64,000 nucleotides of DNA from Spirochaetia bacterium (GTDB taxonomy: Bacteria > Spirochaetota > Spirochaetia > SZUA-6 > Bin103): assembly GCA_965203905.1 (NCBI GenBank), contig CBDBDQ010000005.1:5056001-5120000 (forward strand). Reading direction: 5' to 3'. Positions within the stretch are counted from its first letter, which is position 1. Every line of letters begins with the position of its first letter. The position numbers and the translations under genes were made by a program. Below the pieces are notes generated by a model, which saw only the letters and a list, made by a program, of their open reading frames with translations, did no database searches and was not told the DNA's origin. Positions 32,136-48,544 of the stretch are shown here, piece by piece.

Positions 32136-32267
32136 GACCGTGGGAGGTGCCGGTCGGCGCCGCGAACCTCGTTCGCGCGCACCCACGGGTTTCCTACGGG
32201 TCGGCGCTGTTCACAGGGTGGCCGCGCTCGCGAGAGAGTGCACCGTTAGGGGTTCGGCGAATGTGGA

Positions 32268-32752
32268 TGACGCGTCACGAGGACCGCCAACGCAGTGGTC
32301 GGTTGGCGGTCACGGTCGGTGACCTCCGAGTGGTTGACAGGGTGCCCGCGTCCATAGCAAGCTCGCATCGCTTGGGTTCCCACGGATCGCTGATGAACCG
32401 CCGCGACGACAGTCAGCGCAGTGACCGGTTCCACTGTGACGCGACCGGTGCACCCCCCCCCCCCCCGCAACTCTTTATTAGAAAAAGCATTAACCGCTCA
32501 GGCTGATCGCCCCCTACGCGACCCCGTTCACACCGTCGCCTTCACCACCGCCGTAGCTATCGGTGGCGCCGGCTCGGTCCATCGCCGAACCGGCATTAAG
32601 ACCGCCCGCACCCTTCCCGTCGACCGCAACGGTGCCGGATCCCCGCCTGCGACCAACTGCGCGCAAAACCCACCACCTGCGTTGGCGGCCATTCAGACTC
32701 ACTGCTGTTCAGACCACCGCCACGCGTGGCGTTGTAACGCAGATCCCGACGT
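32268..32752 (+). repeat. conserved non-coding leader with C14 tract (copy 1)
   Basis: Aligns with 43988-44430; C run at 32453-32466. Confidence 0.8.
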
Positions 32753-32764
32753 AGGTCTAGATTT

Positions 32765-32978
32765 CGCCCCGGGTGTGGCCTTCCGCATCCTCCTACGGCG
32801 TCGGCACCCCAAAGTAATTCCTTTCGCGGCTCGATACCCGGCCCGCACGTACCCCCTGTCAACGCTTCACCCCCGCCCTCGCGGGCGACGGCGCATGACT
32901 CGGGGCCGCCGTGGGTCGCTAGCCCTTCGACGTATGACTCTTCCATTCACAACACCTTGCCGGTTTGTGCCGGCGCAC
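32765..32978 (-). mobile_element. 5' remnant (domain I) of a group II intron
   Basis: GTGCG start; near-identical to 46333-46546; same insertion site. Confidence 0.85.
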
Positions 32979-32989
32979 AGGAGGTCAAG

Positions 32990-33025
32990 ATGATACTCAA
33001 AGAACCGCACGCGCGCGCGGCGTGA
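32990..33025 (+). CDS. putative 11-aa leader peptide MILKEPHARAA
   Basis: AGGAGG SD; same length and position as 46559-46594; overlaps a GC-rich hairpin. Confidence 0.4.
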   Translation: MILKEPHARAA

Positions 33026-33168
33026 GCCGGGGTGAACCCGTTGAGTCACACGCCGCGCGCGTCCGAGAACTTGACTCAGACTGGCCGCCCGCGTTGCGGG
33101 CCCGAGAGTAGCCAGGGAGCGGCAAGTCGCTCCGCAATGCTCTCAAAATCCAAGCAAGGATACTAACG

Positions 33169-34986
33169 ATGATGAAAATCCTATTTAGAATGACTAGAAT
33201 GACCTTCGCGTTTGCGTTGGTCCTCGTAATGACCGCAACCGGCCTGTGGGCCACTGGCGCAGACGAAGAGGAGGCGGCCGCCGCCGCTGACAAGAAGTAT
33301 GTGACCGACCCCACCACCGGCAAGGTGGTGGCGGCGCCAGAGTATGGCGGGACTTTCACCTTTGCCAATCAGCTCGAGCCTCCGCATTCTGACACCGCGC
33401 TCCATGGGCTTCCGGGACTGGCCGTCAGTGGCGTTGTAGAGAGGCTAGGAATCATGAACTGGGCAATAGATAGGGACGAATTTGCCTTCAGTAGCACGTT
33501 CGTACCTTCATTTACCCTAAGACCGCACCTGGCGGAAAGCTGGGATACCGAGGACGGCCTCACCTATACCTTCCACATCCGCAAGGGAGTTTACTGGCAC
33601 GATAAACCACCGATGAACGGTCGAGAGCTAGATGCCTATGACGTCGAATATAACTATCACCGCTATTTGGGTATGGGCAGCGGCTTCACCGAACGTTCCC
33701 CAGTAGGAGAGTACGTAGCTTTGCCTTTCGAATCGGTAACGGCCACCGACAAGTGGACGGTTGTTATGAAGATGACGGAGCAAACCGTCGCTCCGCTGGC
33801 AACTATGGTTTCGCCCTTCATATCCCCCCCCGAGGTAATCAAGGAACACGGCGACGTTCAGGACTGGAGGAACCTGGTCGGCACCGGGCCCTATATGCTG
33901 ACTGACTGGGTCGATGGCAGCTCTATGACCTATGTCAAGAATCCTGACTACTGGGGCTACGACGAAAAATACCCGGAGAACCGCTTGCCCTACTTTGACG
34001 AGTTACAGCACCTGATTATTAAAGAGGAAGCGACATATCTGGCGGGACTGCGCGCCGGTAAGATTGATTTCCTGGGTTTCACTGCTGGTGTATCTGACCT
34101 AACCGATAACGATACGATCGATAGCCTCCGGCGGACCAACCCTGAAATCGTGCTGGAGCCGTGGTGGGACCGTTCGGAAACGTCTTATGGCCTTGACGCG
34201 ACCAAGCCGCCCTTTGACGACATCAGGGTGCGCAAGGCAATGCAGATGGCACTGGACCTTGAGGGCATTAACAATACCTACTACAAGGGCACTGCAATGT
34301 GGCAGCCTCAGGGTATATTAGGGGAAGCTGTCACCGGGTATTCCACCCCATTTGAAGAGTGGCCCGAAGAGGTCCAGAAGGGCTATATGTATGACCCGGA
34401 AGGGGCGGAAGCGTTGCTTGATGCGGCTGGATATCCCCGCGGCGCCGACGGCACTAGATTCAAGACCGTGTTGAACCATTTCTGGCGGTTTCCTTTAGCC
34501 TATAGTGAATTAGCTGCCGCCTACTTTAAGGCAATTGGCGTTGATGTAGAGATTAACGTAATCGACGAAGCTACGGCTGGCGCTATGAGAGTTGATACCC
34601 ATGCGGAACGTACTTGGGAAGGTATGATGATGACCGTTCTGGGCTGGAACATTAACCCTGTGTGGGGTATGTTCTGGGTTGCTCACTCGACCGGCTCCGG
34701 ACAAAACTACCACGGAATCGGGTACCCTGAGTTGGACGCCCTTATTGACGCCGCCGAAGCCGCTACCTCCTTGGAGGAGCAGCAGAGGCTGCTTAAAGAG
34801 GCAGATATGTACACTATAGAGAACCACTGGCATGTATGGGGTCCTAAAGCTGGAAAGTTCATGTCGATCCAGCCGTGGGTCATAGGTTTTAACGGTGAAA
34901 TCTGGCTTCATTCAGGTCAGGACCGCTTGCTCATCTTCGCCCGCCTCTGGTTTGACCAGGAGCTGAAGGAAGCAATGGGTCATTAG
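33169..34986 (+). CDS. ABC transporter substrate-binding protein, family 5 (lower-GC type)
   Basis: PEYGGT; WHDKPPMNGREL; VGTGP; PFDDIRVRKAMQMA; exact start codon uncertain. Confidence 0.92.
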   Translation: MMKILFRMTRMTFAFALVLVMTATGLWATGADEEEAAAAADKKYVTDPTTGKVVAAPEYGGTFTFANQLEPPHSDTALHGLPGLAVSGVVERLGIMNWAIDRDEFAFSSTFVPSFTLRPHLAESWDTEDGLTYTFHIRKGVYWHDKPPMNGRELDAYDVEYNYHRYLGMGSGFTERSPVGEYVALPFESVTATDKWTVVMKMTEQTVAPLATMVSPFISPPEVIKEHGDVQDWRNLVGTGPYMLTDWVDGSSMTYVKNPDYWGYDEKYPENRLPYFDELQHLIIKEEATYLAGLRAGKIDFLGFTAGVSDLTDNDTIDSLRRTNPEIVLEPWWDRSETSYGLDATKPPFDDIRVRKAMQMALDLEGINNTYYKGTAMWQPQGILGEAVTGYSTPFEEWPEEVQKGYMYDPEGAEALLDAAGYPRGADGTRFKTVLNHFWRFPLAYSELAAAYFKAIGVDVEINVIDEATAGAMRVDTHAERTWEGMMMTVLGWNINPVWGMFWVAHSTGSGQNYHGIGYPELDALIDAAEAATSLEEQQRLLKEADMYTIENHWHVWGPKAGKFMSIQPWVIGFNGEIWLHSGQDRLLIFARLWFDQELKEAMGH

Positions 34987-40847: not shown

Positions 40848-42647
40848 GAGGAAATTGCGCTGTCCGTAAGTGCAATGCAGGCAATGAAATAGCGAGGCAG
40901 GGATTTTTCTTTACCCCACGGCCCACCGGAGCGCCACCGAGGCAGCTCCCGGGCCCCGGATGATACATCGTAACTATTTATCTACAAAGTAATTGACGGC
41001 TCTCCTGTCGCTTGCCATAATGGCCTGAGAACCACCTCACAACAGGAGAACCGCCGGTGGCTACTATACCAGAACCTTCTCTGTTTTGCTGGGACAGCGT
41101 CGAGCAGTTGGGCGATCTCGAACGCCTGAGCCTGGTCCTCGACGCGCTCCCCGACGAACCGCTGATGCAACTGCTGGAAGCCGATCGCGGCCACGGCCGC
41201 AACGACTACCCGGTGCGCCCGATGTGGAACTCTCTCATCGCTGCCTTCGTCTTCCAGCATCCCAGCATCGCCGCTCTGCGGCGTGAGTTGCTGCGCAACG
41301 GCCAGTTACGAGACAGCTGCGGGTTCGACCCGTTCGCGGGCGCGGCAGCGGTGCCGACCGAATGCGCTTATACCCGGTTCCAGCGCCGGCTGCGCAAGTA
41401 TCAGCCACAGATAGAGGAACTGTTCCATAGCACGCTCGATGAACTGCAGATCGAACTGCCGGATCTGGGACAGGTACAGGCCCTGGACGGCAAGGAGTTG
41501 CATTCGCTGGCCAAGGGCGAGAGCAGCTATCCGCTGCCGGAGGATGACACCCAGCAAGACAGCGACGGGCGCCGCGACCGGGATGCCGATTGGGGCGTCA
41601 AGGGCTCGGGCAAGAAGAAACGCTACTGGTACGGCTACCTGCTGCACTTGGTGGTGGATGCCACCTACGAGTTGCCGCTGGCGTTCGAGGTCACCGAGGC
41701 CTCGCGTGGGGAGCAGCCGCAGGCGCAGTGGCTGCTGGATCAGATGCAGGAGCGCCATCCTGAGTTGCTGGAACGGTGCAGTCGTTTGAGCGCCGACAAG
41801 GGCTACGACGACCACAAGCTGATCAACCGGCTGTGGGATGAGCATCAGATCAAGCCGATCATCGCGATTCGCAACTGCTGGAAGGATGCGGATGCGGAGG
41901 ACAATGGCGTCCGCACCAAGCTGGTGAACGGACAGGAGAACGTGATCTACACCTACAACGGCGAAGTCTCCTGCATGTGTCCGCTCAGCGGTGAGGTGCA
42001 TAGCATGACCTACGGCGGCTTCGACGCGATCGCGAGACGCTGAAGTACCGCTGTCCGGCGCGCTACTCGGGGATCACCTGCAAGGGCATGGAGCAGTGTC
42101 CGCTGGCGGGCAAGGCGGTGCGCATCCCGCTGGCGGAGGATCGACGGGTGTTCACGCCGGTGGCGCGGTCCAGCTACCGATGGCAGGACTACTACGACGA
42201 GCGCAGCGCAGTGGAGCGGGTCAACAGCCGCTTGGCGGGCGGCTTCGGGTTCGAGCGACCGGGCATCCGCGGGCTGGCGAAGATGCAGTTGCGCATCACC
42301 ATGGCCCTGACGATCATGCTGGCGATGGCCTTGGGGCGGATCCGGGCCGGCCAACCTGAGCACCTGCGGAGTCTGGTCAAACCCGCCGCCTGAGCGGCGC
42401 CTCCTCGCCGGTCACCAACGAGAAACACAATCCCACCGGCTGCGCAGCGCCACCGGTCTGTCCTGAGCTGGCCGCGGAGCCACGATGAAGCCCGATTCAA
42501 GCGCTGAGGCATCCTCCAGCACACTCCGGATGGCCACTATGTGGCGCTGCGGTGTGCGCCCAGCGAGGCCATGCGCGAGCCCGCCCCACGCGCTTGGCCC
42601 CCGACGTTCGTTCGCCGACCCAAAACCCTATACAGCGCAATTGCCTC
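40848..42647 (+). mobile_element. 1800-bp insertion sequence (IS1182/IS5-like)
   Basis: 16-bp inverted repeats GAGGAAATTGCGCTGT / ACAGCGCAATTGCCTC (1 mismatch); 5-bp TSD GCAGT at 40843-40847 and 42648-42652. Confidence 0.9.
41057..42393 (+). CDS. DDE transposase (DUF772 + DDE), frameshift near 42023
   Basis: GRNDYP; ALDG; D.DADWG; YGY.LH; ADKGYD; RSAVERVNSRL in the second frame. Confidence 0.85.
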
Positions 42648-42947
42648 GCAGTGGTCTTGCCAATCAGTACCGGCTGTCGGCACACTATAGCGACCTCGAT
42701 TTCCTCACCACGATCCTCAGCCCCGAGGATCTGACTGCCAGGATCAAGGCCCAACCTGCCGCTGCGGGCGCGGCGACCTGAACGAGCTGAACAAACCCGA
42801 ACATTCAGGTTCGGATGCGGTAACCAACTCTCCTGCAAGGAGATAGCCGCACCCGGACCCCCGAACCCCGTATTTGAACGTATACCCTGTTTAGACTGTG
42901 CCCGAAGGTGTCTCACCGGCAGCGGACGGCAACGGAAAGGAGCAAGC

Positions 42948-43823
42948 ATGAAGTTCCAGCGCCACCTGGACGGTTTTCGCGACTACCTGCGCGCCCATCA
43001 CTTCGCCGCCCGCACCCTCGAGACCTACGGGGCTAACACCAAGCGCTTCCTGGCATTCCTCGAGGAGCGCTACCCACGCATCGACACGGTCGAGCAGGTC
43101 ACCAAGGACACGATCCTCGACTATCAACGGCATCTGGCCGAGCATGAGCATGCCACGCAGAACCTGATCCTGCGGTCGGTGCGCAAGTTCTTCCATTATC
43201 TACTGCGCGGCGACTTCATCCTCCGGGACCCCACCAGCGTGCTGGAGTTCCCCAAGGAGGAGCAGAAGCTGATTCGGAATGTGTTGTCGGAGGACGAGGT
43301 CTCAGGCCTGCTCGAGCAGATCAAGCCGATCGGCCCCGAGGGGCTGCGCAACCGCGCCATCGTCGAGCTGCTGTACGCCTGCGGCATCCGCACCACCGAG
43401 CTGTGTCGGCTCCGGGTCGCCGACGTGGACCTCAAGGAACAGACGGTCACCATCATGAAGGGCAAGGGCGGCAAGTCGCGCGTGGTCCCCATCGGTCAGT
43501 ACGCCTGCCACTACATCGCCGAGTATCTGCGCAAGGGTCGCAAGTACTTCCTGCGCGGACGCACCGACGATCCGGGCCTGTTGTTCCTATCGGGCTGGGG
43601 CAACCCCTTCAACGCCAGCACTATCAACCGCTCGGTGATGTGGAAGATCGCCACCGAGGCGGGGCTCAAGAAAGACCTGACCTGCTATACGTTTCGCCAT
43701 TCGGTGGCGACCCATCTTCTGCGAGCCGATGCGAACGTGATGCACATCGCCAAGCTGCTCGGCCACGCCTCGCTGAATAATGTTGCGTTGCCCGTTATGT
43801 TGCGTTGGGCCGGTTCTCCTTAA
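42948..43823 (+). pseudogene. XerD-like tyrosine recombinase truncated before the catalytic Tyr
   Basis: RNRAIVELLYACGIR; GKGGKSR; FRHS.ATHLL; LLGHASLN, then unrelated sequence. Confidence 0.82.
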
Positions 43824-43990: not shown

Positions 43991-44430
43991 TCGCGCCATG
44001 ACGACGCGCCAGGATGGCGTCAGCGCAGTGACCGGTTGGCGCTCACGTTTGGTGAGCTCCGAGTGGTCCGAGTGGTTGACAGGGTGCTCGCGTCCATAGC
44101 AAGCTTGCCTCGCTTGGGGTTTCGACGGATCGATGATGACGCGCCATGACGACAGCCAGCGCAGTGACCGCTTCGCTGTGACGCGACCGGTGCATCCCCC
44201 CCCCCCCCACTTTTTCGAACCGAGAAACAACTAACCGCTCCGGCTGATCGGCCCGTACGCGACCCCGCGCACGCCGTCGCCTTCAGCACCGGGGTAGCGG
44301 CCGGCTACGACCGCAACGGTCCTGGATCCCCGCCCCCCAACTCACCGTCACAGAACCGACCGCCGACGTCGCCGGTCAACCACATTCGTTGCTCGGCCGA
44401 CCACCGCCCCGCGTGGCGTTGTGACGCAGG
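43988..44430 (+). repeat. conserved non-coding leader with C13 tract (copy 2)
   Basis: Aligns with 32268-32752; C run at 44196-44208. Confidence 0.8.
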
Positions 44431-44528
44431 TCCCAACGTCCGCCGAGCGGTGGGCGTTTGCATGATGGGGCGCGCACGCGGATCCCATCTTACGTCAGCC
44501 ATCTGGCAGGGCACCCTGTGCCCCAAGA

Positions 44529-46546
44529 GTCGGAGTAGGAATGACCATCGCTGATCACCCCCTCCACAGATCCCGGCGAGCGGAACTACCGCACCGGGCT
44601 CCTGCCTCAGGTATGACGCCAAGGCGGTACAAGGGATAGGGATGGCACACGCGGGGCGGTGGCAACCAGTGGCCGATCAGACGGCTCAGCCGCTCCCAGG
44701 TAAGCCGGGGCTTCTGACTGCGCCGCCGCATCGACCGATACCAGAGCCGACCTACCCGCAGGCGGAACAGGCGCAGTGCGCGGGAGTTCGTGGGCACCCC
44801 GTAGTACCGCAGGTGCCCACCCACAACCGAGCGCAGCCAGCTTCCCACCTCCGGGACCGGATCGTGCAGGCGCCGCCGGAGCTCGGTCTTCACCTGCCCC
44901 AGCTTGGCCTGCAACCGCTCCCGCATCGTCTGCCTGAGCACCGTAAACCGTCCGTCACTCCACTTCGTCCCGCAGATGTGCGTGAACCCGAGGAAGTCGA
45001 AGGTCTCCGGCTTCCCCTGACCTCGACGCCTGCGGTTCTCGGCCGCGAACGGCCCGAACTCGATCAAGCGCGTCTTGTCAGGATCCAGCTCCAAGGCGAA
45101 CTTGCTGAACCTCTCGGTCAGCTCCGCCCGGAACCGCTCGGCATCCGAGCGGTTCCGGAATCCGCCGACGATGTCATCCGCGTAGCGCACGACGATCACC
45201 TCGCCACGCGCCTGCGTCTGCCGCCAGCGCCGGACCCACAGGTCGAACACGTAGTGCAGGTAGATGTTGGCAAGAAGCGGCGAAGCGCTGCCTCCCTGCG
45301 GCGTCCCCTGCTCGCTGCGTGTCCGCGTCCCGTCTTCCAGCACGCCGGCGTTCAGCCATTTCTGGATGAGCCGCACGACGCGCCGATCCCCGATCCGATG
45401 CTCGGCGAACTTCACCAGCCAGCCGTGGTCGATGGCGTCAAAGAACCCACGGATGTCCACGTCGAGCACCCAGTTCACCTTCCGTGTCAGCAGGCCCACA
45501 TAGAGCGCGTCCAACGCATTGTGCTGGCTGCGCCCCGGCCGGAACCCGTAACTGAACCCGAGAAAGTCGGTCTCGTAGATGGTGTTCAGCACCTCGACTG
45601 TCGCACGCTGGACGATCTTGTCTTCCAGCGCCGTCACGCCGAGCGGTCGTTGCCGCCCGTCGCTCTTGGGGATGAACACCCTCCGCACCGGCTTCGCCCG
45701 GTACGCTCCTCGCTGCAGCCGTCCACAGAGGTCCAGGAGGTTGCCCTCCAGGTCCCTGCCGTACTGCCGCCACGTCACCCGGTCCACCCCCGGCGCGGCT
45801 TCCCGCCTGAGGCTGAAGTACGCCTCCCGGAGCATCGCAGGGTTGTCGACGTGGTGCATGAGCGCGGTGAACCGCAGCGTCCTATCCCGTCGCGCTGCTT
45901 GACGTATCCGCTCCAGCGCACTGAGCGCGCCCTCCCGGCGCAGTGTCCGGGGCGCGTTTTGCTGGCGCAGATTCCCTTTGGCCAGGCCCCTTTCCTCCAC
46001 CCGCTCCGCGGCCCGGTTGCTGCCGGCCGGCGTGACCGTAGGTTCTCCCTTGGCTGTATCCGGCGTTTCCGCCTGCGTGCCCGTGTAGGGTTCACCATAG
46101 CCGCGCCACCTGCGGCAGCCCCCGTCCTTGTTCGCGGGTTTCCCAGGTACTATGGGCCTGTCCGACTTCCCAGCTCCGTTCATCGTCGGCGTACGTCCTT
46201 GGACTTCCCGACACGGCCTGCGGCGCCATCCGCCACAGGCGAAGCTGGGATCTCCCGGCTCCCGCGCAAGGTGTTTCCGTACGTGCCCGGGGTCTGTGAC
46301 CGCGCAGGGTCCCGTGGCGCCTCGCGATATCGGCGCCCCGAGTGTGGCCTTCCGCATCCTCCTACGGCGTCGGCACCCCAAAGTAATTCCTTTCGCGGCT
46401 CGATACCCGGCCCGCACGTACCCCTGTCAACGCTTCACCCCCGCTCTTGCGAGCGACGGCGCATGACTCAGGGCCGCCGTGGGTCGCTAGCCCTTCGACG
46501 TATGACTCTTCCATTCACAACACCTTGCCGGTTTTTACCGGCGCAC
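44529..46546 (-). mobile_element. complete group II intron (probably bacterial class E)
   Basis: 5' GTGCG at 46546; DV GAGCCCGGTGCGGTAGTTCCGCTCGCCGGGATC; DVI ending CCTACTCCGAC at 44529. Confidence 0.92.
44555..46183 (-). CDS. ltrA: group II intron reverse transcriptase/maturase, no endonuclease domain
   Basis: RFTAL.HHV; AAPGVD; IPKSDGRQRPLG; GTPQG; RYADD; FDFLGFTH. Confidence 0.93.
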   Translation of the reverse strand: MNGAGKSDRPIVPGKPANKDGGCRRWRGYGEPYTGTQAETPDTAKGEPTVTPAGSNRAAERVEERGLAKGNLRQQNAPRTLRREGALSALERIRQAARRDRTLRFTALMHHVDNPAMLREAYFSLRREAAPGVDRVTWRQYGRDLEGNLLDLCGRLQRGAYRAKPVRRVFIPKSDGRQRPLGVTALEDKIVQRATVEVLNTIYETDFLGFSYGFRPGRSQHNALDALYVGLLTRKVNWVLDVDIRGFFDAIDHGWLVKFAEHRIGDRRVVRLIQKWLNAGVLEDGTRTRSEQGTPQGGSASPLLANIYLHYVFDLWVRRWRQTQARGEVIVVRYADDIVGGFRNRSDAERFRAELTERFSKFALELDPDKTRLIEFGPFAAENRRRRGQGKPETFDFLGFTHICGTKWSDGRFTVLRQTMRERLQAKLGQVKTELRRRLHDPVPEVGSWLRSVVGGHLRYYGVPTNSRALRLFRLRVGRLWYRSMRRRSQKPRLTWERLSRLIGHWLPPPRVCHPYPLYRLGVIPEAGARCGSSARRDLWRG

Positions 46547-46558
46547 AGGAGGTGCGAA

Positions 46559-46594
46559 ATGATACTCAAAGAACCGCAACCCCGCGCGGCGTGA
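46559..46594 (+). CDS. putative 11-aa leader peptide MILKEPQPRAA
   Basis: AGGAGGTG SD; conserved with 32990-33025. Confidence 0.4.
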   Translation: MILKEPQPRAA

Positions 46595-46753
46595 GCCCGG
46601 CTAAACCCGGTGAGTCACACGCCGCGCGCTTCACAATTCGACTCAGACTGGCCGTCCGCGTTGGCGGGCGCGCCCGCGTTGCGGGCGTCAGAGTAGCCAG
46701 GGAGCGGCAAGTCGCTCCGCAATACTCTCGAGAATCAAGATCCGGAGTTACGC

Positions 46754-48544
46754 ATGAACTTTGCAAAAATTAGAATGACCTTCGCGTTTGCGTTGGTCCT
46801 CGTAATGACCGCAACCGGCCTCTGGGCCGCTGGCGCAGAAGAGGAGCCGGCAGCCGCTGCCGACAAGAAGTATGTGACCGACCCCTCCACCGGCAAGGTG
46901 GTGGTGGCGCCAGAGTATGGCGGGACAATAACCTTCGCCCGAAAAGACGAGCCGGCGGGTCCTGACACCGTGATCAGTGGTATGTGGGCGCAAGCCTACG
47001 TCGCTGGCGTTAATGAGAAGCTCGCCTGGCCGGACTGGGCAACGCCTAGGGACGAATTTGACTTCGTGTATCACAACGTTCCAACTAACACGATAGGGAG
47101 TCTGGCGGAAAGCTGGTCGCAGCCCGACCCACTGACGTATATCGTCAAAGTCCGCCAGGGCGTTTACTGGCATGATAAGCCACCGATGAACGGTCGGGAG
47201 CTGATTGCCGACGATATCGTATATAACTATCACCGTATTACGGGTACGGGCAGCGGTTTCACCGAACGTAGCGAATGGGCCCAGGCACTCAAATCTGTGC
47301 CACTCGAATCGGTAACGGCCACCGACAAATGGACGGTTGTTTTTAAGCTGAAGTCGCTACACCTCGATGCGCTGGCTGCTATCCTCGACGGCACGATCGC
47401 TTGGATATATCCCCCCGAGGTAATCAAGGAACACGGGGACGTTACGGATTGGAGGAACCTGGTCGGCACCGGACCCATGATGCTGACTGACTTGGTCGAA
47501 GGCGTCTCTATTACCTGGGACAAGAATCCTGACTACTGGGGATACGACGAGAAATACCCGGAGAACCGCCTGCCCTATATTGACCGGCTGAGGGCCCTGT
47601 TTATGCCAGAAGACCCAACGTATCTGGCGGCACTGCGCACGGGTAGGATTGATTACATAGGTCCGATCAGCGGCAACGCAATCATGAGTCAAGACCAGTT
47701 AGAGAGCCTCAAGAGGACCAACCCCGAACTCGTGATATATCCGTATATCGATCGGTCAGATAATGCTATTGGTATGAACACGCAGAGGCCGCCCTTTGAC
47801 GACATCAGGGTGCGCAAGGCAATGCAGATGGCACTAAACCTCGAGGAAATTAACGACGGCTTGTATGGAGGTTTTGCAGATGTGACACCTCAGGGGGTGA
47901 TAAACCGGTCTTTAACATGTTGTGTCACCCAATTTGAAGAGTGGCCCGAAGAGGTCAAGAAAGGCTTTATGTATGACCCGGCAGGGGCCGAGAAGCTTCT
48001 TGATGAGGCGGGGTATCCGCGCGGGGCCGACGGCATTAGATTTAAGACCGAGTTGATGCACCTCGTGTTTAGACCTTTGAGCTATGTAGAATTACTCGCT
48101 TCATACTGGAATAAGATTGGCATTGATGTAGAGATTGATTCACCACCAGTACCTTCCTTTGCCTCTAGAAGAGGTGAGAGGGATTTCGAAATGATCAGTG
48201 CGGAAGCGGCCATGCGGTGGAACCCATTGGTATTAGAATCTCGCTATCTACCGACCACATCATATAACAGCGCCAATGTCAACGACCCGGTTTATACAGC
48301 CATGCATGAAGCCGCCGCAGCCGCTACCACCATCGAGGAGTATAACAGTATAATTAAAGAGTTGGATCAGTATGGGATAGAGAAGTTCTGGGAGATATGG
48401 GGTGGTATGGCCCCACAGTATGTCGCGATCCAGCCGTGGCTCGTCGGTTTTAACGGTGAAACGATGTTGGGAACGGGTCAATATACCACCATCTTCAGCC
48501 GCCTCTGGGTTGATAGTGAGCTGAAGGAAGCAATGGGTCATTAG
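46754..48544 (+). CDS. ABC transporter substrate-binding protein, family 5; paralog of 33169-34986
   Basis: Near-identical signal region and identical ELKEAMGH end; GGAG RBS. Confidence 0.92.
   Translation: MNFAKIRMTFAFALVLVMTATGLWAAGAEEEPAAAADKKYVTDPSTGKVVVAPEYGGTITFARKDEPAGPDTVISGMWAQAYVAGVNEKLAWPDWATPRDEFDFVYHNVPTNTIGSLAESWSQPDPLTYIVKVRQGVYWHDKPPMNGRELIADDIVYNYHRITGTGSGFTERSEWAQALKSVPLESVTATDKWTVVFKLKSLHLDALAAILDGTIAWIYPPEVIKEHGDVTDWRNLVGTGPMMLTDLVEGVSITWDKNPDYWGYDEKYPENRLPYIDRLRALFMPEDPTYLAALRTGRIDYIGPISGNAIMSQDQLESLKRTNPELVIYPYIDRSDNAIGMNTQRPPFDDIRVRKAMQMALNLEEINDGLYGGFADVTPQGVINRSLTCCVTQFEEWPEEVKKGFMYDPAGAEKLLDEAGYPRGADGIRFKTELMHLVFRPLSYVELLASYWNKIGIDVEIDSPPVPSFASRRGERDFEMISAEAAMRWNPLVLESRYLPTTSYNSANVNDPVYTAMHEAAAAATTIEEYNSIIKELDQYGIEKFWEIWGGMAPQYVAIQPWLVGFNGETMLGTGQYTTIFSRLWVDSELKEAMGH

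What the first reader, a model, noticed from the sequence alone, without database searches (positions are those of the whole stretch)
46321..46561. Group II intron whose EBS1 is a Shine-Dalgarno sequence
Seen: the intron lies antisense, and its 5' end (46546) abuts AGGAGG, so IBS1 is CCTCCT. The domain-I loop GCCGT-AGGAGGAT-GCGG (46358-46363, minus strand) is the exact complement. The remnant at 32765-32978 has the same loop and site. Inference: the intron homes just upstream of ribosome-binding sites, an abundant non-coding target. CCUCCU followed by U also matches the 16S rRNA 3' tail, so reverse splicing into rRNA is conceivable (speculative). The two sites may descend from a single insertion.
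Basis: partly seen in the sequence, partly recalled or inferred. Interest (0 to 1): 0.75.

Follow-up and report, generated by a model that had tools for sequence, protein, structure and literature searches.

The report
Intron retroelement that targets ribosome-binding sites
This is a complete mobile group II intron whose guide loop reads like a ribosome-binding site, and its relatives in many bacterial phyla sit backwards, right in front of the ribosome-binding sites of real genes, a way of choosing targets that I could not find described.

Summary
A full-length group II intron of 2018 nt lies on the minus strand at 44529-46546. It matches Rfam RF02005 at 181.7 bits and has an intact RT/maturase.

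Its 5' exon ends in CCTCCT. The loop AGGAGG (46358-46363) is EBS1. Among 81 distinct insertion sites of related introns, 74 show 6-7 contiguous pairs in one fixed register. There are 17 covarying loop variants, and an EBS3/+1 pair covaries as well. I found no sign of EBS2.

In this genome and its genus, the intron occupies one multi-copy leader upstream of paralogous SBP_bac_5 ABC-transporter genes.

In the sister genus and in the 80 closest IEP relatives (mostly Acidobacteriota, also other phyla), 58 of 70 non-leader sites have an ATG 12-14 nt from the insertion point on the opposite strand. The control rate is 5%. All 10 downstream ORFs that I tested are real genes.

So the lineage sits antisense, immediately 5' of Shine-Dalgarno sequences. 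In the sister genus the copies run with the replication fork, which points to the lagging-strand template.

It is not settled whether this enrichment comes from targeting or from survival of harmless insertions. Eight literature searches found no description of it. The idea of reverse splicing into 16S rRNA gained no support.

The parts
44529..46546 (-). Full-length group II intron, 2018 nt. It is the only full-length copy in this genome.
   Evidence: The 5' end is GTGCG. RF02005 scores 181.7 bits. RF00029 covers D5/D6 at 37.1 bits and ends at 44529. blastn of the intron against the genome finds one other copy, which carries an internal deletion, plus fragments. An intron-less junction 44528|AGGAGG occurs in contigs of runs X15 and X16.
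46347..46374 (-). EBS1 hairpin. The loop is GUAGGAGGAU, and EBS1 = AGGAGG lies at 46363-46358.
   Evidence: 74 of 81 sites pair over 6 or more bp in a fixed register. 6 of the 7 IBS1-EBS1 pairs show changes on both sides across 31 aligned introns.
46297..46297 (-). Candidate EBS3: the A that follows the conserved GCGCGGUC. It pairs with the first base of the 3' exon (T, window 44528).
   Evidence: 59 of 66 sites form a Watson-Crick pair with +1, and all four pair types occur: A-T 37, C-G 16, G-C 4, T-A 2.
44555..46183 (-). Intron-encoded protein of 542 aa: RT plus maturase, YADD present, no endonuclease domain. In this copy the frame runs on through D5 into D6.
   Evidence: Pfam RVT_1, E 2.3e-36. 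NCBIfam TIGR04416 at 336.1 bits against a cut-off of 300, covering residues 117-488. Translation.
44529..44603 (-). Domains V and VI with a bulged A. The 3' end reads ...CUACUCCGAC.
   Evidence: RF00029 at 37.1 bits, E 4.3e-05, below the gathering score of 40. The same D5/D6 sequence is conserved in relatives.
46547..46552 (+). AGGAGG on the gene strand, which is IBS1 (CCTCCT) on the intron strand. It is the first six bases of the conserved leader.
   Evidence: Sequence reading. Leader copies without an intron start here.
46559..46594 (+). An 11-codon ORF (MILKEPQPRAA) that begins 6 nt after AGGAGG.
   Evidence: A start codon is present in 25 of the 31 alignable leader copies, by my hand reading.
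46547..46753 (+). Conserved leader of about 207 nt (AGGAGG, short ORF, long GC-rich hairpin) in front of the SBP gene. It is the intron's 5' exon, read in antisense.
   Evidence: 32 copies in the genome. 28 of the 32 lie 154-217 nt upstream of an SBP paralog. The leader was found only in genus g1.
46754..48544 (+). ABC-transporter substrate-binding protein gene (SBP_bac_5).
   Evidence: Pfam PF00496, E 1.9e-59.
44000..44528 (-). 3' exon. It is a second repeated block, upstream of the leader in gene orientation. Over the first 120 nt it is 98% identical to the 3' flank of the second intron copy.
32765..32978 (-). Intron remnant holding the first 213 nt, with the EBS1 loop at 32794-32789. It sits at the same position in a paralogous leader (IBS1 32984-32979), upstream of the SBP paralog at 33169-34986.
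   Evidence: RF02005 at 124.6 bits. Sequence. blastn gives 96% identity over 214 nt. Pfam.

Best explanation
The element is a complete and probably active group II intron retroelement. It has an RF02005-type ribozyme, a compact IIE/IIF-like RNA, and an RT/maturase without an endonuclease domain.

It belongs to a lineage that finds its DNA target through only 7-8 base pairs. EBS1 is a 6-7 nt purine-rich loop with the sequence of a Shine-Dalgarno site (AGGAGG here; AAGGAG, AGGAGA, CAGGAG, UGGAGG and others in relatives). EBS3 adds one more pair. No EBS2 takes part.

The target is therefore the complement of an SD. The intron enters the template strand of a gene immediately 5' of its SD, in antisense orientation, and leaves the SD and start codon intact.

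Shown: the pairings, the positions of the sites, and the strand bias in the sister genus.

Inferred:
- The RNP reverse-splices into single-stranded DNA of the lagging-strand template at replication forks, and a nascent strand primes the cDNA. This is the known route for endonuclease-less introns.
- The strong excess of true SD sites among the many 7-mer matches is mostly survivorship. Insertions just 5' of an SD disrupt no coding sequence, whereas antisense insertions inside genes cannot be spliced out and are lost.

In this genome and its genus the same rule has turned the intron into a classical homing element. A conserved leader that starts with AGGAGG-N5/6-ATG is present in about 30 copies upstream of paralogous SBP_bac_5 operons, and it offers a repeated perfect site. 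Copies probably also spread between these leaders by recombination.
For: Identity of the element.
- RF02005 at 181.7 bits. D5/D6 matched at 37.1 bits.
- IEP matches TIGR04416 at 336 bits and has no endonuclease domain. Its closest solved relatives are group IIC RTs.

EBS1.
- 74 of 81 distinct sites show 6-7 contiguous pairs in one register, with 17 loop variants. Shuffled pairings give 2.03 against the observed 6.11.
- In a 31-intron alignment, 6 of 7 pairs have compensatory changes and 92.6% of cells are paired. When the whole tested structure is slid by 1-3 columns, pairing falls from 95.4% to 37-55%.

EBS3 and EBS2.
- EBS3: 59 of 66 sites pair with +1 in Watson-Crick fashion, and all four pair types occur.
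- EBS2: the longest complement averages 3.79 against 3.75 in shuffles, and 167 of 500 shuffles reach the observed value.

SD context.
- Of 70 non-leader sites, 58 have ATG at offset 12-14 and 63 have some start codon at offset 10-16.
- In the control, 1755 of 35126 hexamer sites in this genome have ATG at 12-14, which is 5.0%.
- 46 of the 70 are followed by an ORF of 100 aa or more, or one still open at the flank end.
- All 10 ORFs tested hit Pfam families; in 7 of them the domain starts within the first 16 residues.
- In G020, 2784 CCTCCAG sites exist and only 114 have CAT 5-8 nt upstream. Yet 7 of the 10 insertion sites that end in CCTCCA do (hand count).

Breadth. 553 IEP relatives were found. 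The best 80 come from Acidobacteriota, Planctomycetota, Alphaproteobacteria, Magnetococcales, Pseudomonadales, Gemmatimonadaceae and other groups.

Strand bias.
- On G020 contig C4, 13 of 14 sites switch strand at 1.56 Mb (coordinates). The GC skew changes sign at the same place, +0.022 against -0.015.
- In G000 the skew minimum coincides with dnaA, so the G-rich strand is the leading strand.
- G018: 6 of 6 hits, and G020 contig C3: 7 of 7 sites, run with the fork if the origin lies at dnaA.

Site rule. Tandem head-to-tail arrays occur in G020, where EBS3 is C and the resident intron's first G satisfies +1.

Local picture.
- 32 leader copies exist, and 10 carry an intron or remnant at exactly this position.
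- 28 of 32 lie upstream of SBP paralogs.
- The leader is found in 7 of 10 other genomes of genus g1, 0 of 13 of genus g2 and 0 of 17 from other families.
- All 11 sites from genus g1 are in the leader, and none of the 20 sites found by the RF02005 search in the sister genus g2 is.
Against: Within this genome alone the case is weak.

- Every copy sits in one homologous leader.
- The AGGAGG there precedes only an 11-codon ORF. The ORF's nucleotides, rather than its codons, look conserved. 6 of 31 alignable copies lack a start codon (hand reading). SD function at this site is therefore unproven.
- Occupied leaders show no lagging-template bias: 3 of 10 run with the fork, against 7 of 22 empty ones.
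- The two long copies share a 3' flank that is 98% identical over its first 120 nt, while their 5' flanks are 74-80% identical. This fits recombination better than retrohoming.

How an intron lying antisense to its host gene gets transcribed together with its 5' exon is unexplained. No sigma-70-like promoter was found on either strand across 44300-46800. The contigs from RNA libraries cannot show strand or transcription.

The enrichment at SDs may owe nothing to targeting, and nothing here separates the two readings.

7 of the 70 sites have no start codon nearby, and 8 have only a short ORF.

The site set was chosen by a regular expression (GTGCGCCGG plus the hairpin). Other RF02005 lineages and truncated copies among the 170 loci were dropped before counting.
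Confidence: 0.85

Rival explanations
1. The intron recognises translation-initiation regions by more than base pairing. Besides EBS1/EBS3, the RNP (the IEP or another RNA element) would sense the start region, for example the start-codon complement 12-15 nt upstream, or easily melted AT-rich DNA in front of genes. The SD preference would then be built in, not a product of selection.
For: The enrichment is very large. 7 of 10 G020 sites fit CAT-N5-8-CCTCCA|G, against 114 of 2784 genome-wide, or 4.1%. These G020 copies are identical over their first 270 nt, so they are recent and selection has had little time to act. In the exon profile, information rises again at positions -16 to -13.
Against: The offset of the ATG varies from 12 to 15. 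It has the same spread as natural SD-ATG spacing in the control, whose peak lies at 11-14. No EBS2-like complementarity to positions -17 to -7 was found. A few sites have no start codon at all. Survivorship alone can produce strong intergenic bias.
Confidence: 0.25
2. This is ordinary site-specific homing to one repeated leader, and the resemblance to an SD is incidental. The element would be a standard homing intron, and the window finding would carry no wider meaning.
For: In G000 and its genus, all 11 sites of this lineage lie in the leader. The leader is restricted to genus g1. The short ORF behind the AGGAGG is doubtful as a gene.
Against: Related introns in 70 non-homologous sites from many phyla abut SD plus ATG of unrelated real genes, and their EBS1 covaries with the exon. 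No long homing site or EBS2 is evident.
Confidence: 0.05
3. The insertions serve the host or act as regulators. The antisense intron would supply an outward promoter, as described for IIC-attC introns, or an antisense RNA that controls the gene behind the SD, and it would be kept for that reason.
For: The intron always leaves the SD and ATG intact and lies directly in front of them. [quoted passage not shown]
Against: No sigma-70-like promoter was found on either strand of the window copy. The copies behave like a proliferating retroelement, with tandem arrays, remnants and deletions. No expression data are available.
Confidence: 0.05
4. The real target is the RNA or DNA of the 16S rRNA 3' tail (CCUCCU followed by U), and the genomic SD sites are by-products.
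For: The 16S gene of this genome ends ...GGATCACCTCCT|TTT. This matches IBS1 plus IBS3 perfectly, and it lies on the strand that runs with the fork.
Against: That site is empty. None of the 81 sites is in rRNA. None of 27 metagenome matches to '16S tail + intron start' lies in 16S.
Confidence: 0.02

Closest known systems
Group IIC (bacterial class C) introns, which insert after intrinsic terminators or at attC sites
   Same: Both have an endonuclease-less IEP and a compact ribozyme. Both lack a working EBS2. Both use a short, abundant, non-coding target motif instead of a long homing site, so they occupy many sites per genome and form tandem copies. Both prefer the lagging-strand template. The closest solved IEP structures are IIC RTs (6AR1 at E 2.4e-40, also 5HHL and 7UIM). 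Like the IIC-attC introns, this lineage lies antisense to the neighbouring gene; that orientation of IIC-attC introns is recalled.
   Different: Here the target is read by a 6-7 bp EBS1 pairing. In IIC, as I recall and as PMC3753933 says, recognition rests on a DNA hairpin plus a shortened EBS1. I saw no consistent hairpin in the exons, but this was by eye only and was not tested. The motif is the SD complement, not a terminator or an attC site. D5 has a 5-nt loop.
Bacterial classes E and F (group IIE/IIF ribozymes; Nagy et al. 2013, PMC3753933, passages read)
   Same: The ribozyme is small, about 363 nt before the ORF. D5 has a 5-nt loop instead of a 4-nt one (read). A hairpin with a conserved terminal loop sits next to EBS1 in distal Id, where alpha' is expected in IIE/IIF. 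That paper found EBS1-IBS1 crucial for splicing and EBS2 dispensable.
   Different: The paper describes IIE/IIF introns as having a clear, covarying EBS2-IBS2 and specific homing sites. No EBS2 signal is found here. The class was not assigned by IEP phylogeny, because no reference sequences were at hand.
RmInt1 (class D, Sinorhizobium meliloti)
   Same: The IEP lacks an endonuclease. The intron inserts into the lagging-strand template at replication forks (abstract of PMC8914252, seen in the listing). It homes into a repeated genomic element, as this intron does in genus g1.
   Different: RmInt1 uses EBS1, EBS2 and EBS3 on a long site in an insertion sequence, in the sense orientation (recalled). 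The intron here needs 7-8 bp and lies antisense to its host genes.
Rfam RF02005 (group-II-D1D4-6)
   Same: The D1 region scores 181.7 bits against a gathering score of 49.
   Different: The family also holds lineages with other 5' ends and other targets. One example is the abundant G005 lineage, which sits behind ...GGGGGGTACCCTGGG. SD targeting is a property of one sub-lineage, not of the whole family.

Membership tests
Group II intron (ORF-containing, bacterial) | A 5' GUGYG and a D1 that matches a curated covariance model | tested here: met
   GTGCG at 46546. RF02005 at 181.7 bits against a gathering score of 49.
Group II intron (ORF-containing, bacterial) | Domain V and domain VI with a bulged branch-point A close to the 3' end | tested here: inconclusive
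   RF00029 scores 37.1 bits, E 4.3e-05, below the gathering score of 40. The sequence is conserved in relatives. One base pair next to the catalytic triad is non-canonical (flagged).
Group II intron (ORF-containing, bacterial) | An RT/maturase encoded in domain IV | tested here: met
   TIGR04416 at 336.1 bits against a cut-off of 300. RVT_1. YADD present in the translation.
Group II intron (ORF-containing, bacterial) | EBS1-IBS1 and EBS3-IBS3 pairing with the flanking exons | tested here: met
Group II intron (ORF-containing, bacterial) | Self-splicing and retromobility | not testable with these tools
   Only indirect evidence exists: many identical copies at different sites in G020, and an intron-less junction in contigs.
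Endonuclease-less IEP lineages | No D/En domain after the maturase domain | tested here: met
   The TIGR04416 match ends at residue 488 of 542. The last 18 or so residues are read-through of D5/D6. No further Pfam or NCBIfam domain was found.
Class C / IIC | Insertion after a terminator or attC hairpin, with a shortened EBS1 | tested here: not met
   EBS1 pairs over 6-7 bp. The sites are SD complements in front of genes. The absence of a hairpin was judged by eye only.
Class C / IIC | No EBS2 | tested here: met
   No complementarity above shuffled controls.
Classes E/F (IIE/IIF) | A 5-nt loop in D5 | tested here: met
   The D5 loop reads GCGG-UAGUU-CCGC here and GCGG-GAAAC-CCGC in relatives (my reading).
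Classes E/F (IIE/IIF) | A covarying EBS2-IBS2 | tested here: not met
Classes E/F (IIE/IIF) | The IEP falls in clade E or F | not tested
Shine-Dalgarno site (for the AGGAGG beside the window intron) | Lies 5-9 nt upstream of the start codon of a translated ORF | tested here: inconclusive
   AGGAGG-N6-ATG is present, but the ORF has only 11 codons, and 6 of 31 alignable leader copies lack a start codon. No ribosome-profiling data exist.

The most novel reading that the evidence does not exclude
A widespread lineage of group II introns has made the universal SD/anti-SD code its address. Its EBS1 mimics an SD and guides the RNP to the antisense strand of translation-initiation regions of head-on genes, across phyla. 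This recognition would be an evolved, active preference that goes beyond 7-8 bp of pairing, and it would have consequences for expression of the invaded genes. It would amount to a fourth target-site strategy for bacterial group II introns, beside homing sites, terminators and attC sites.
Probability: 0.3. Interest if true: 0.9.

Novelty: new variant of a known kind. Interest (0 to 1): 0.8.

Why it matters
A 2015 review (PMC4424553, passage seen) lists three target specificities for bacterial group II introns: homing sites, terminator motifs and attC sites. A lineage that uses the complement of the Shine-Dalgarno sequence would add a fourth.

This strategy would explain how an intron with only 7-8 bp of specificity can multiply to dozens of copies without destroying genes. 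The motif is present in front of most genes in most bacteria, so it would also explain the lineage's spread across phyla.

It gives a natural system for asking how endonuclease-less introns pick sites at replication forks. It also allows a test of what a 2-kb antisense insert just 5' of an SD does to gene expression.

As a by-product, the work reveals a highly conserved, multi-copy leader in front of about 30 paralogous transporter genes, which may be an unknown regulatory RNA.

Tried and rejected
EBS2. I looked for complementarity between the internal loop at the Id2 position and exon positions -17 to -7. There was none above shuffled controls.

Outward or own promoter. The consensus scan of 44300-46800 found no sigma-70-like site on either strand.

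16S rRNA as target. The genome's own 16S end is a perfect match but is empty. A scan of metagenome contigs for the 16S tail joined to the intron start gave 27 stretches. None lay in 16S, and most were chance matches inside coding sequence.

Single ancestral insertion for the two window sites. I rejected this because the flanking genes are far more diverged than the intron parts.

Terminator-type (IIC) targeting. A long hairpin does lie about 35 nt upstream of the site in the leader. The non-leader sites show no consistent hairpin, but this was by eye only.

Known RNA family in the leader. Rfam at E up to 1 over 44300-46700 gave only the two intron matches.

Transcription and splicing from public runs. 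Only contigs were available, so strand, ends and expression level could not be read. Depth over the leader is high in the RNA libraries, but it sums many paralogs and organisms.

Other RF02005 lineages. The lineage abundant in G005, and the 'TGACAC'-loop introns L192-L200, were looked at but their targets were not resolved.

Literature. Eight full-text searches found nothing on group II introns that target SD or RBS sequences. I read passages of PMC8643678, PMC2882425, PMC4424553, PMC3753933, PMC3552965 and PMC8919778. A term search of PMC7306698 returned no occurrences. Simon et al. 2008 is not held. An unpublished thesis, Wu 2018, is cited in PMC8919778. Supplementary files were not opened. 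Any of these may contain insertion-site data that I could not see.
Full report
WHAT IS THERE

On the minus strand the window holds a group II intron. It begins GTGCG at 46546. Rfam's group-II-D1D4-6 model (RF02005) matches 46290-46509 at 181.7 bits, E 4.2e-53. A second match at 32728-32941 scores 124.6 bits. Domains V and VI are found at 44529-44603 with RF00029 at 37.1 bits, slightly under the gathering score of 40.

The ORF from the ATG at 46183 to 44555 encodes 542 aa. It has an RT domain (RVT_1, E 2.3e-36) and matches NCBIfam TIGR04416, group II intron RT/maturase, at 336.1 bits against a cut-off of 300, over residues 117-488. YADD is present and no endonuclease domain follows. Among solved structures the best hits are group IIC RTs (6AR1, E 2.4e-40).

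BOUNDARIES

The 5' exon ends ...CACCTCCT. I first placed the 3' end at ...CCTAC (44535), but three results move it to 44529 (...CUACUCCGAC).
- The RF00029 alignment ends there.
- Head-to-tail copies in genome G020 join ...CTACTCCGAA directly to GTGCG, at a spacing of 2016 nt.
- Contigs of two RNA libraries from different studies (X15, X16) join window base 44528 directly to AGGAGGTGAAG and then the ATG at 46559. This is an intron-less leader broken exactly at the two predicted splice sites. Contigs cannot say whether it is an empty DNA site or ligated exons.

The intron is thus 2018 nt, 44529-46546.

THE LOOP IS EBS1

Next to it lies a second hairpin with a conserved terminal loop (consensus fold of 31 introns).

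To test the pairing I collected relatives in two ways. One was RF02005 hits in 41 related genomes, of which 24 had a match. The other was the 80 best of 553 IEP relatives in one-per-species genomes. Further regions were fetched.

A regular expression for the 5' start plus the hairpin found 97 intron 5' ends in the 170 loci L031-L200. Of these, 82 are unique by their last 40 exon bases, and 81 remain after the tandem-junction entry is dropped. Loci without the pattern were dropped at this step; they are other lineages or truncated copies.

With loop position 3 set opposite exon position -1, 74 of the 81 sites show 6 or 7 contiguous pairs. The mean is 6.11, against 2.03 (sd 0.26, maximum 2.85) in 2000 shuffles, and there are 17 different loop sequences. 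Rare non-SD loops covary too: AUGCAU with an exon ending ATGCAT, UAGGGU with CCCTA, UGGAAC with GTTCCA.

On a MAFFT alignment of 31 diverse introns, 6 of the 7 IBS1-EBS1 pairs have changes on both sides and 92.6% of cells pair. For the whole tested structure, sliding the partners by 1-3 columns drops pairing from 95.4% to 37-55%.

EBS3 AND EBS2

A single nucleotide after the conserved GCGCGGUC (window 46297) covaries with the first base of the 3' exon. The counts are A-T 37, C-G 16, G-C 4 and T-A 2, so 59 of 66 sites form a Watson-Crick pair. This is EBS3-IBS3.

I found no EBS2. The longest complement between the Id2-position loop and exon positions -17 to -7 averages 3.79, against 3.75 for shuffled partners, and 167 of 500 shuffles reach the observed value. 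Target reading therefore rests on 7-8 base pairs.

WHERE THE LINEAGE SITS

Of the 81 sites, 11 are the leader described below and all 11 come from genus g1. Among the other 70:
- 58 have an ATG whose first base lies 12-14 nt from the insertion point on the opposite strand.
- 63 have some start codon at offset 10-16 (60 ATG, 2 GTG, 1 TTG).
- 46 are followed by an ORF of 100 aa or more, or one still open at the end of the flank. 9 have ORFs of 50-99 aa, 8 have shorter ones, and 7 have no start codon.

In the control, only 1755 of the 35126 occurrences of six IBS1 hexamers in this genome (5.0%) have ATG at 12-14. Where long ORFs do follow such hexamers, the spacing peaks at 11-14, the natural SD spacing.

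All ten downstream ORFs that I tested hit Pfam families: nucleoside hydrolase, short-chain dehydrogenase, aldo-keto reductase (twice), sulfatase, glyoxalase, alpha/beta hydrolase, transaldolase, hydantoinase B and an Mrr-type nuclease. In seven of them the domain begins within the first 16 residues. The ATGs are therefore real starts, and the CTCC-type exon ends are the complements of their SDs.

G020 carries copies that are identical over their first 270 nt. It holds 2784 CCTCCAG sites but only 114 with CAT 5-8 nt upstream. Yet 7 of the 10 insertion sites that end in CCTCCA fit that pattern, and two more have CAT at 9 nt (hand count).

The hosts named in the record titles are mostly Acidobacteriota. 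Planctomycetota, Alphaproteobacteria, Magnetococcales, Pseudomonadales, Gemmatimonadaceae, Deferrisomatales, Binatia and others also appear.

STRAND

On contig C4 of G020, six sites at 0.18-1.56 Mb lie on the plus strand and seven at 1.57-2.89 Mb on the minus strand, with one exception (coordinates). Ten 20-kb samples on each side give a GC skew of +0.022 +/- 0.005 on the left and -0.015 +/- 0.007 on the right. In G000, dnaA sits at the cumulative-skew minimum, so the G-rich strand is the leading strand.

The introns therefore point the way the fork moves, which means they lie in the lagging-strand template. On G020 contig C3, 7 of 7 sites lie downstream of dnaA on its strand. In G018, 6 of 6 hits agree if the origin is at dnaA.

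This is the bias reported for endonuclease-less introns (PMC8919778, passages; PMC8914252, abstract in a search listing). It implies that the invaded genes are head-on genes.

TANDEM ARRAYS

In G020, EBS3 is C and the 3' exons start with G. An occupied site keeps its IBS1, and the resident intron's first G satisfies +1. This accounts for the seven head-to-tail arrays.

In L167 a copy with EBS1 CAGGAG sits one base inside a resident copy. It uses the resident intron's G as the last IBS1 base and its T as +1. Both cases follow the recognition rule.

THE LOCAL PICTURE

In G000 the 120 nt upstream of the intron recur 32 times. Of these copies, 28 lie 154-217 nt upstream of a paralog of the window's SBP_bac_5 gene. 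The proteins are only 29-71% identical, while the leaders are 72-91% identical in DNA.

Read in gene orientation, the conserved block begins exactly at the insertion point. It reads AGGAGGTG, then 4-5 nt, ATG, a conserved 11-codon frame, and a long GC-rich hairpin.

Ten of the 32 copies carry an intron or an intron remnant at precisely this position: seven with an intact start nonamer and three degenerate. Only the window copy is full length. The copy at C5:7566053 has lost intron positions 1223-1664, and the window remnant keeps 213 nt.

The leader was found in 7 of 10 other genomes of the genus, in 0 of 13 genomes of the sister genus, and in 0 of 17 genomes from other families of the order. 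This fits the split between leader sites in g1 and assorted gene starts in g2.

WHAT DOES NOT FIT

- The leader's short ORF looks conserved at the nucleotide level, and 6 of 31 alignable copies lack a start codon (hand reading). The AGGAGG may not act as an SD here.
- Occupied leaders in G000 show no lagging-template bias: 3 of 10, against 7 of 22 empty ones.
- The two long copies share a 3' flank that is 98% identical over 120 nt, but their 5' flanks are only 74-80% identical. This suggests spread by recombination between leaders.
- I cannot say how an intron that is antisense to its host gene is transcribed together with its 5' exon. No promoter-like site was found.
- Nothing here separates true preference for initiation regions from survival of harmless insertions among the roughly 3000 possible 7-mers per genome.

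16S rRNA

The genome's single 16S gene ends GGATCACCTCCT|TTT. This is a perfect IBS1 plus IBS3, and it lies on the fork-directed strand, yet it is empty. None of the 81 sites lies in rRNA. A metagenome scan for the tail joined to the intron start gave 27 stretches, none of them in 16S. RNA-level reverse splicing could not be tested.

COMPARISON AND NOVELTY

The RNA shares a 5-nt D5 loop and its small size with classes E/F (PMC3753933, passages). It shares the lack of EBS2 and the use of a short, abundant motif with class C. It is a member of RF02005, but other RF02005 lineages have other targets.

A 2015 review names three target specificities for bacterial introns: homing sites, terminators and attC sites (PMC4424553, passage). 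Eight full-text searches found no report of SD-complement targeting. Simon et al. 2008, an unpublished thesis cited in PMC8919778, and all supplements were out of reach.

I rate this a new variant of a known kind, with high interest.

Noticed in passing
window 46547-46753 (+) and 32979-33168 (+); 32 copies in G000: A leader of about 200 nt (AGGAGG, an 11-codon ORF, a long GC-rich hairpin) is far better conserved (72-91% DNA identity) than the SBP_bac_5 genes it precedes (29-71% protein identity). It is confined to one genus, has no Rfam match at E up to 1 in the part scanned, and shows very high summed depth in RNA-library contigs. It may be an undescribed cis-regulatory RNA or leader peptide.
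   Followed up: partly
window 44000-44528 and 32200-32760 (minus-strand reading): A second repeated block of about 15-29 copies lies 150-550 nt upstream of the leader. It includes a run of 12-13 G at about 44195-44207 and a similar run at about 32455-32470. Its function is unknown, and the homopolymer length could be an assembly artefact.
   Followed up: no
G020 (L062-L066, L071, L075); also G012 and G014 by their spacing: Head-to-tail tandem arrays of two or three identical introns at a spacing of 2016 nt. They are explained by retention of IBS1 together with an EBS3 (C) that accepts the resident intron's first G.
   Followed up: yes
L167 (an Acidobacteriota MAG locus): One intron is inserted one base inside another. 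The newcomer uses the resident intron's first G as its last IBS1 base and the following T as +1.
   Followed up: partly
G005 (L081-L099) and G001 (the 68.8-bit hits): Other RF02005 lineages have proliferated to 15 or more copies. Their 5' ends (GUAYGAG...) and their targets differ, for example behind ...GGGGGGTACCCTGGG. I could not find their EBS1 pairing.
   Followed up: partly
window 44569-44601 (-), domain V: The base pair formed by the G of the AGC triad is a G-A mismatch. Infernal flags it, and it is conserved in all relatives examined. In this copy the IEP frame reads on through D5 into D6 before its stop at 44555.
   Followed up: no
G000:C5:2528540-2528640 (L201): The single 16S rRNA gene ends ...GGATCACCTCCT|TTT. 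This is a perfect match to the intron's IBS1 and IBS3, on the strand that runs with the fork, yet it is unoccupied.
   Followed up: yes
window 41057-43823 (+): Between the two SBP operons lie a DDE transposase gene (41057-42043) and a tyrosine recombinase gene (42948-43823), directly next to the repeated block that forms the intron's 3' exon.
   Followed up: no
G000:C5:7566053-7567644 versus the window copy: The two long intron copies are 95% identical. Their 3' flanks are 98% identical over the first 120 nt, while the 5' flanks and adjoining genes are about 74-80% identical. This looks like gene conversion between paralogous leaders rather than retrohoming.
   Followed up: partly
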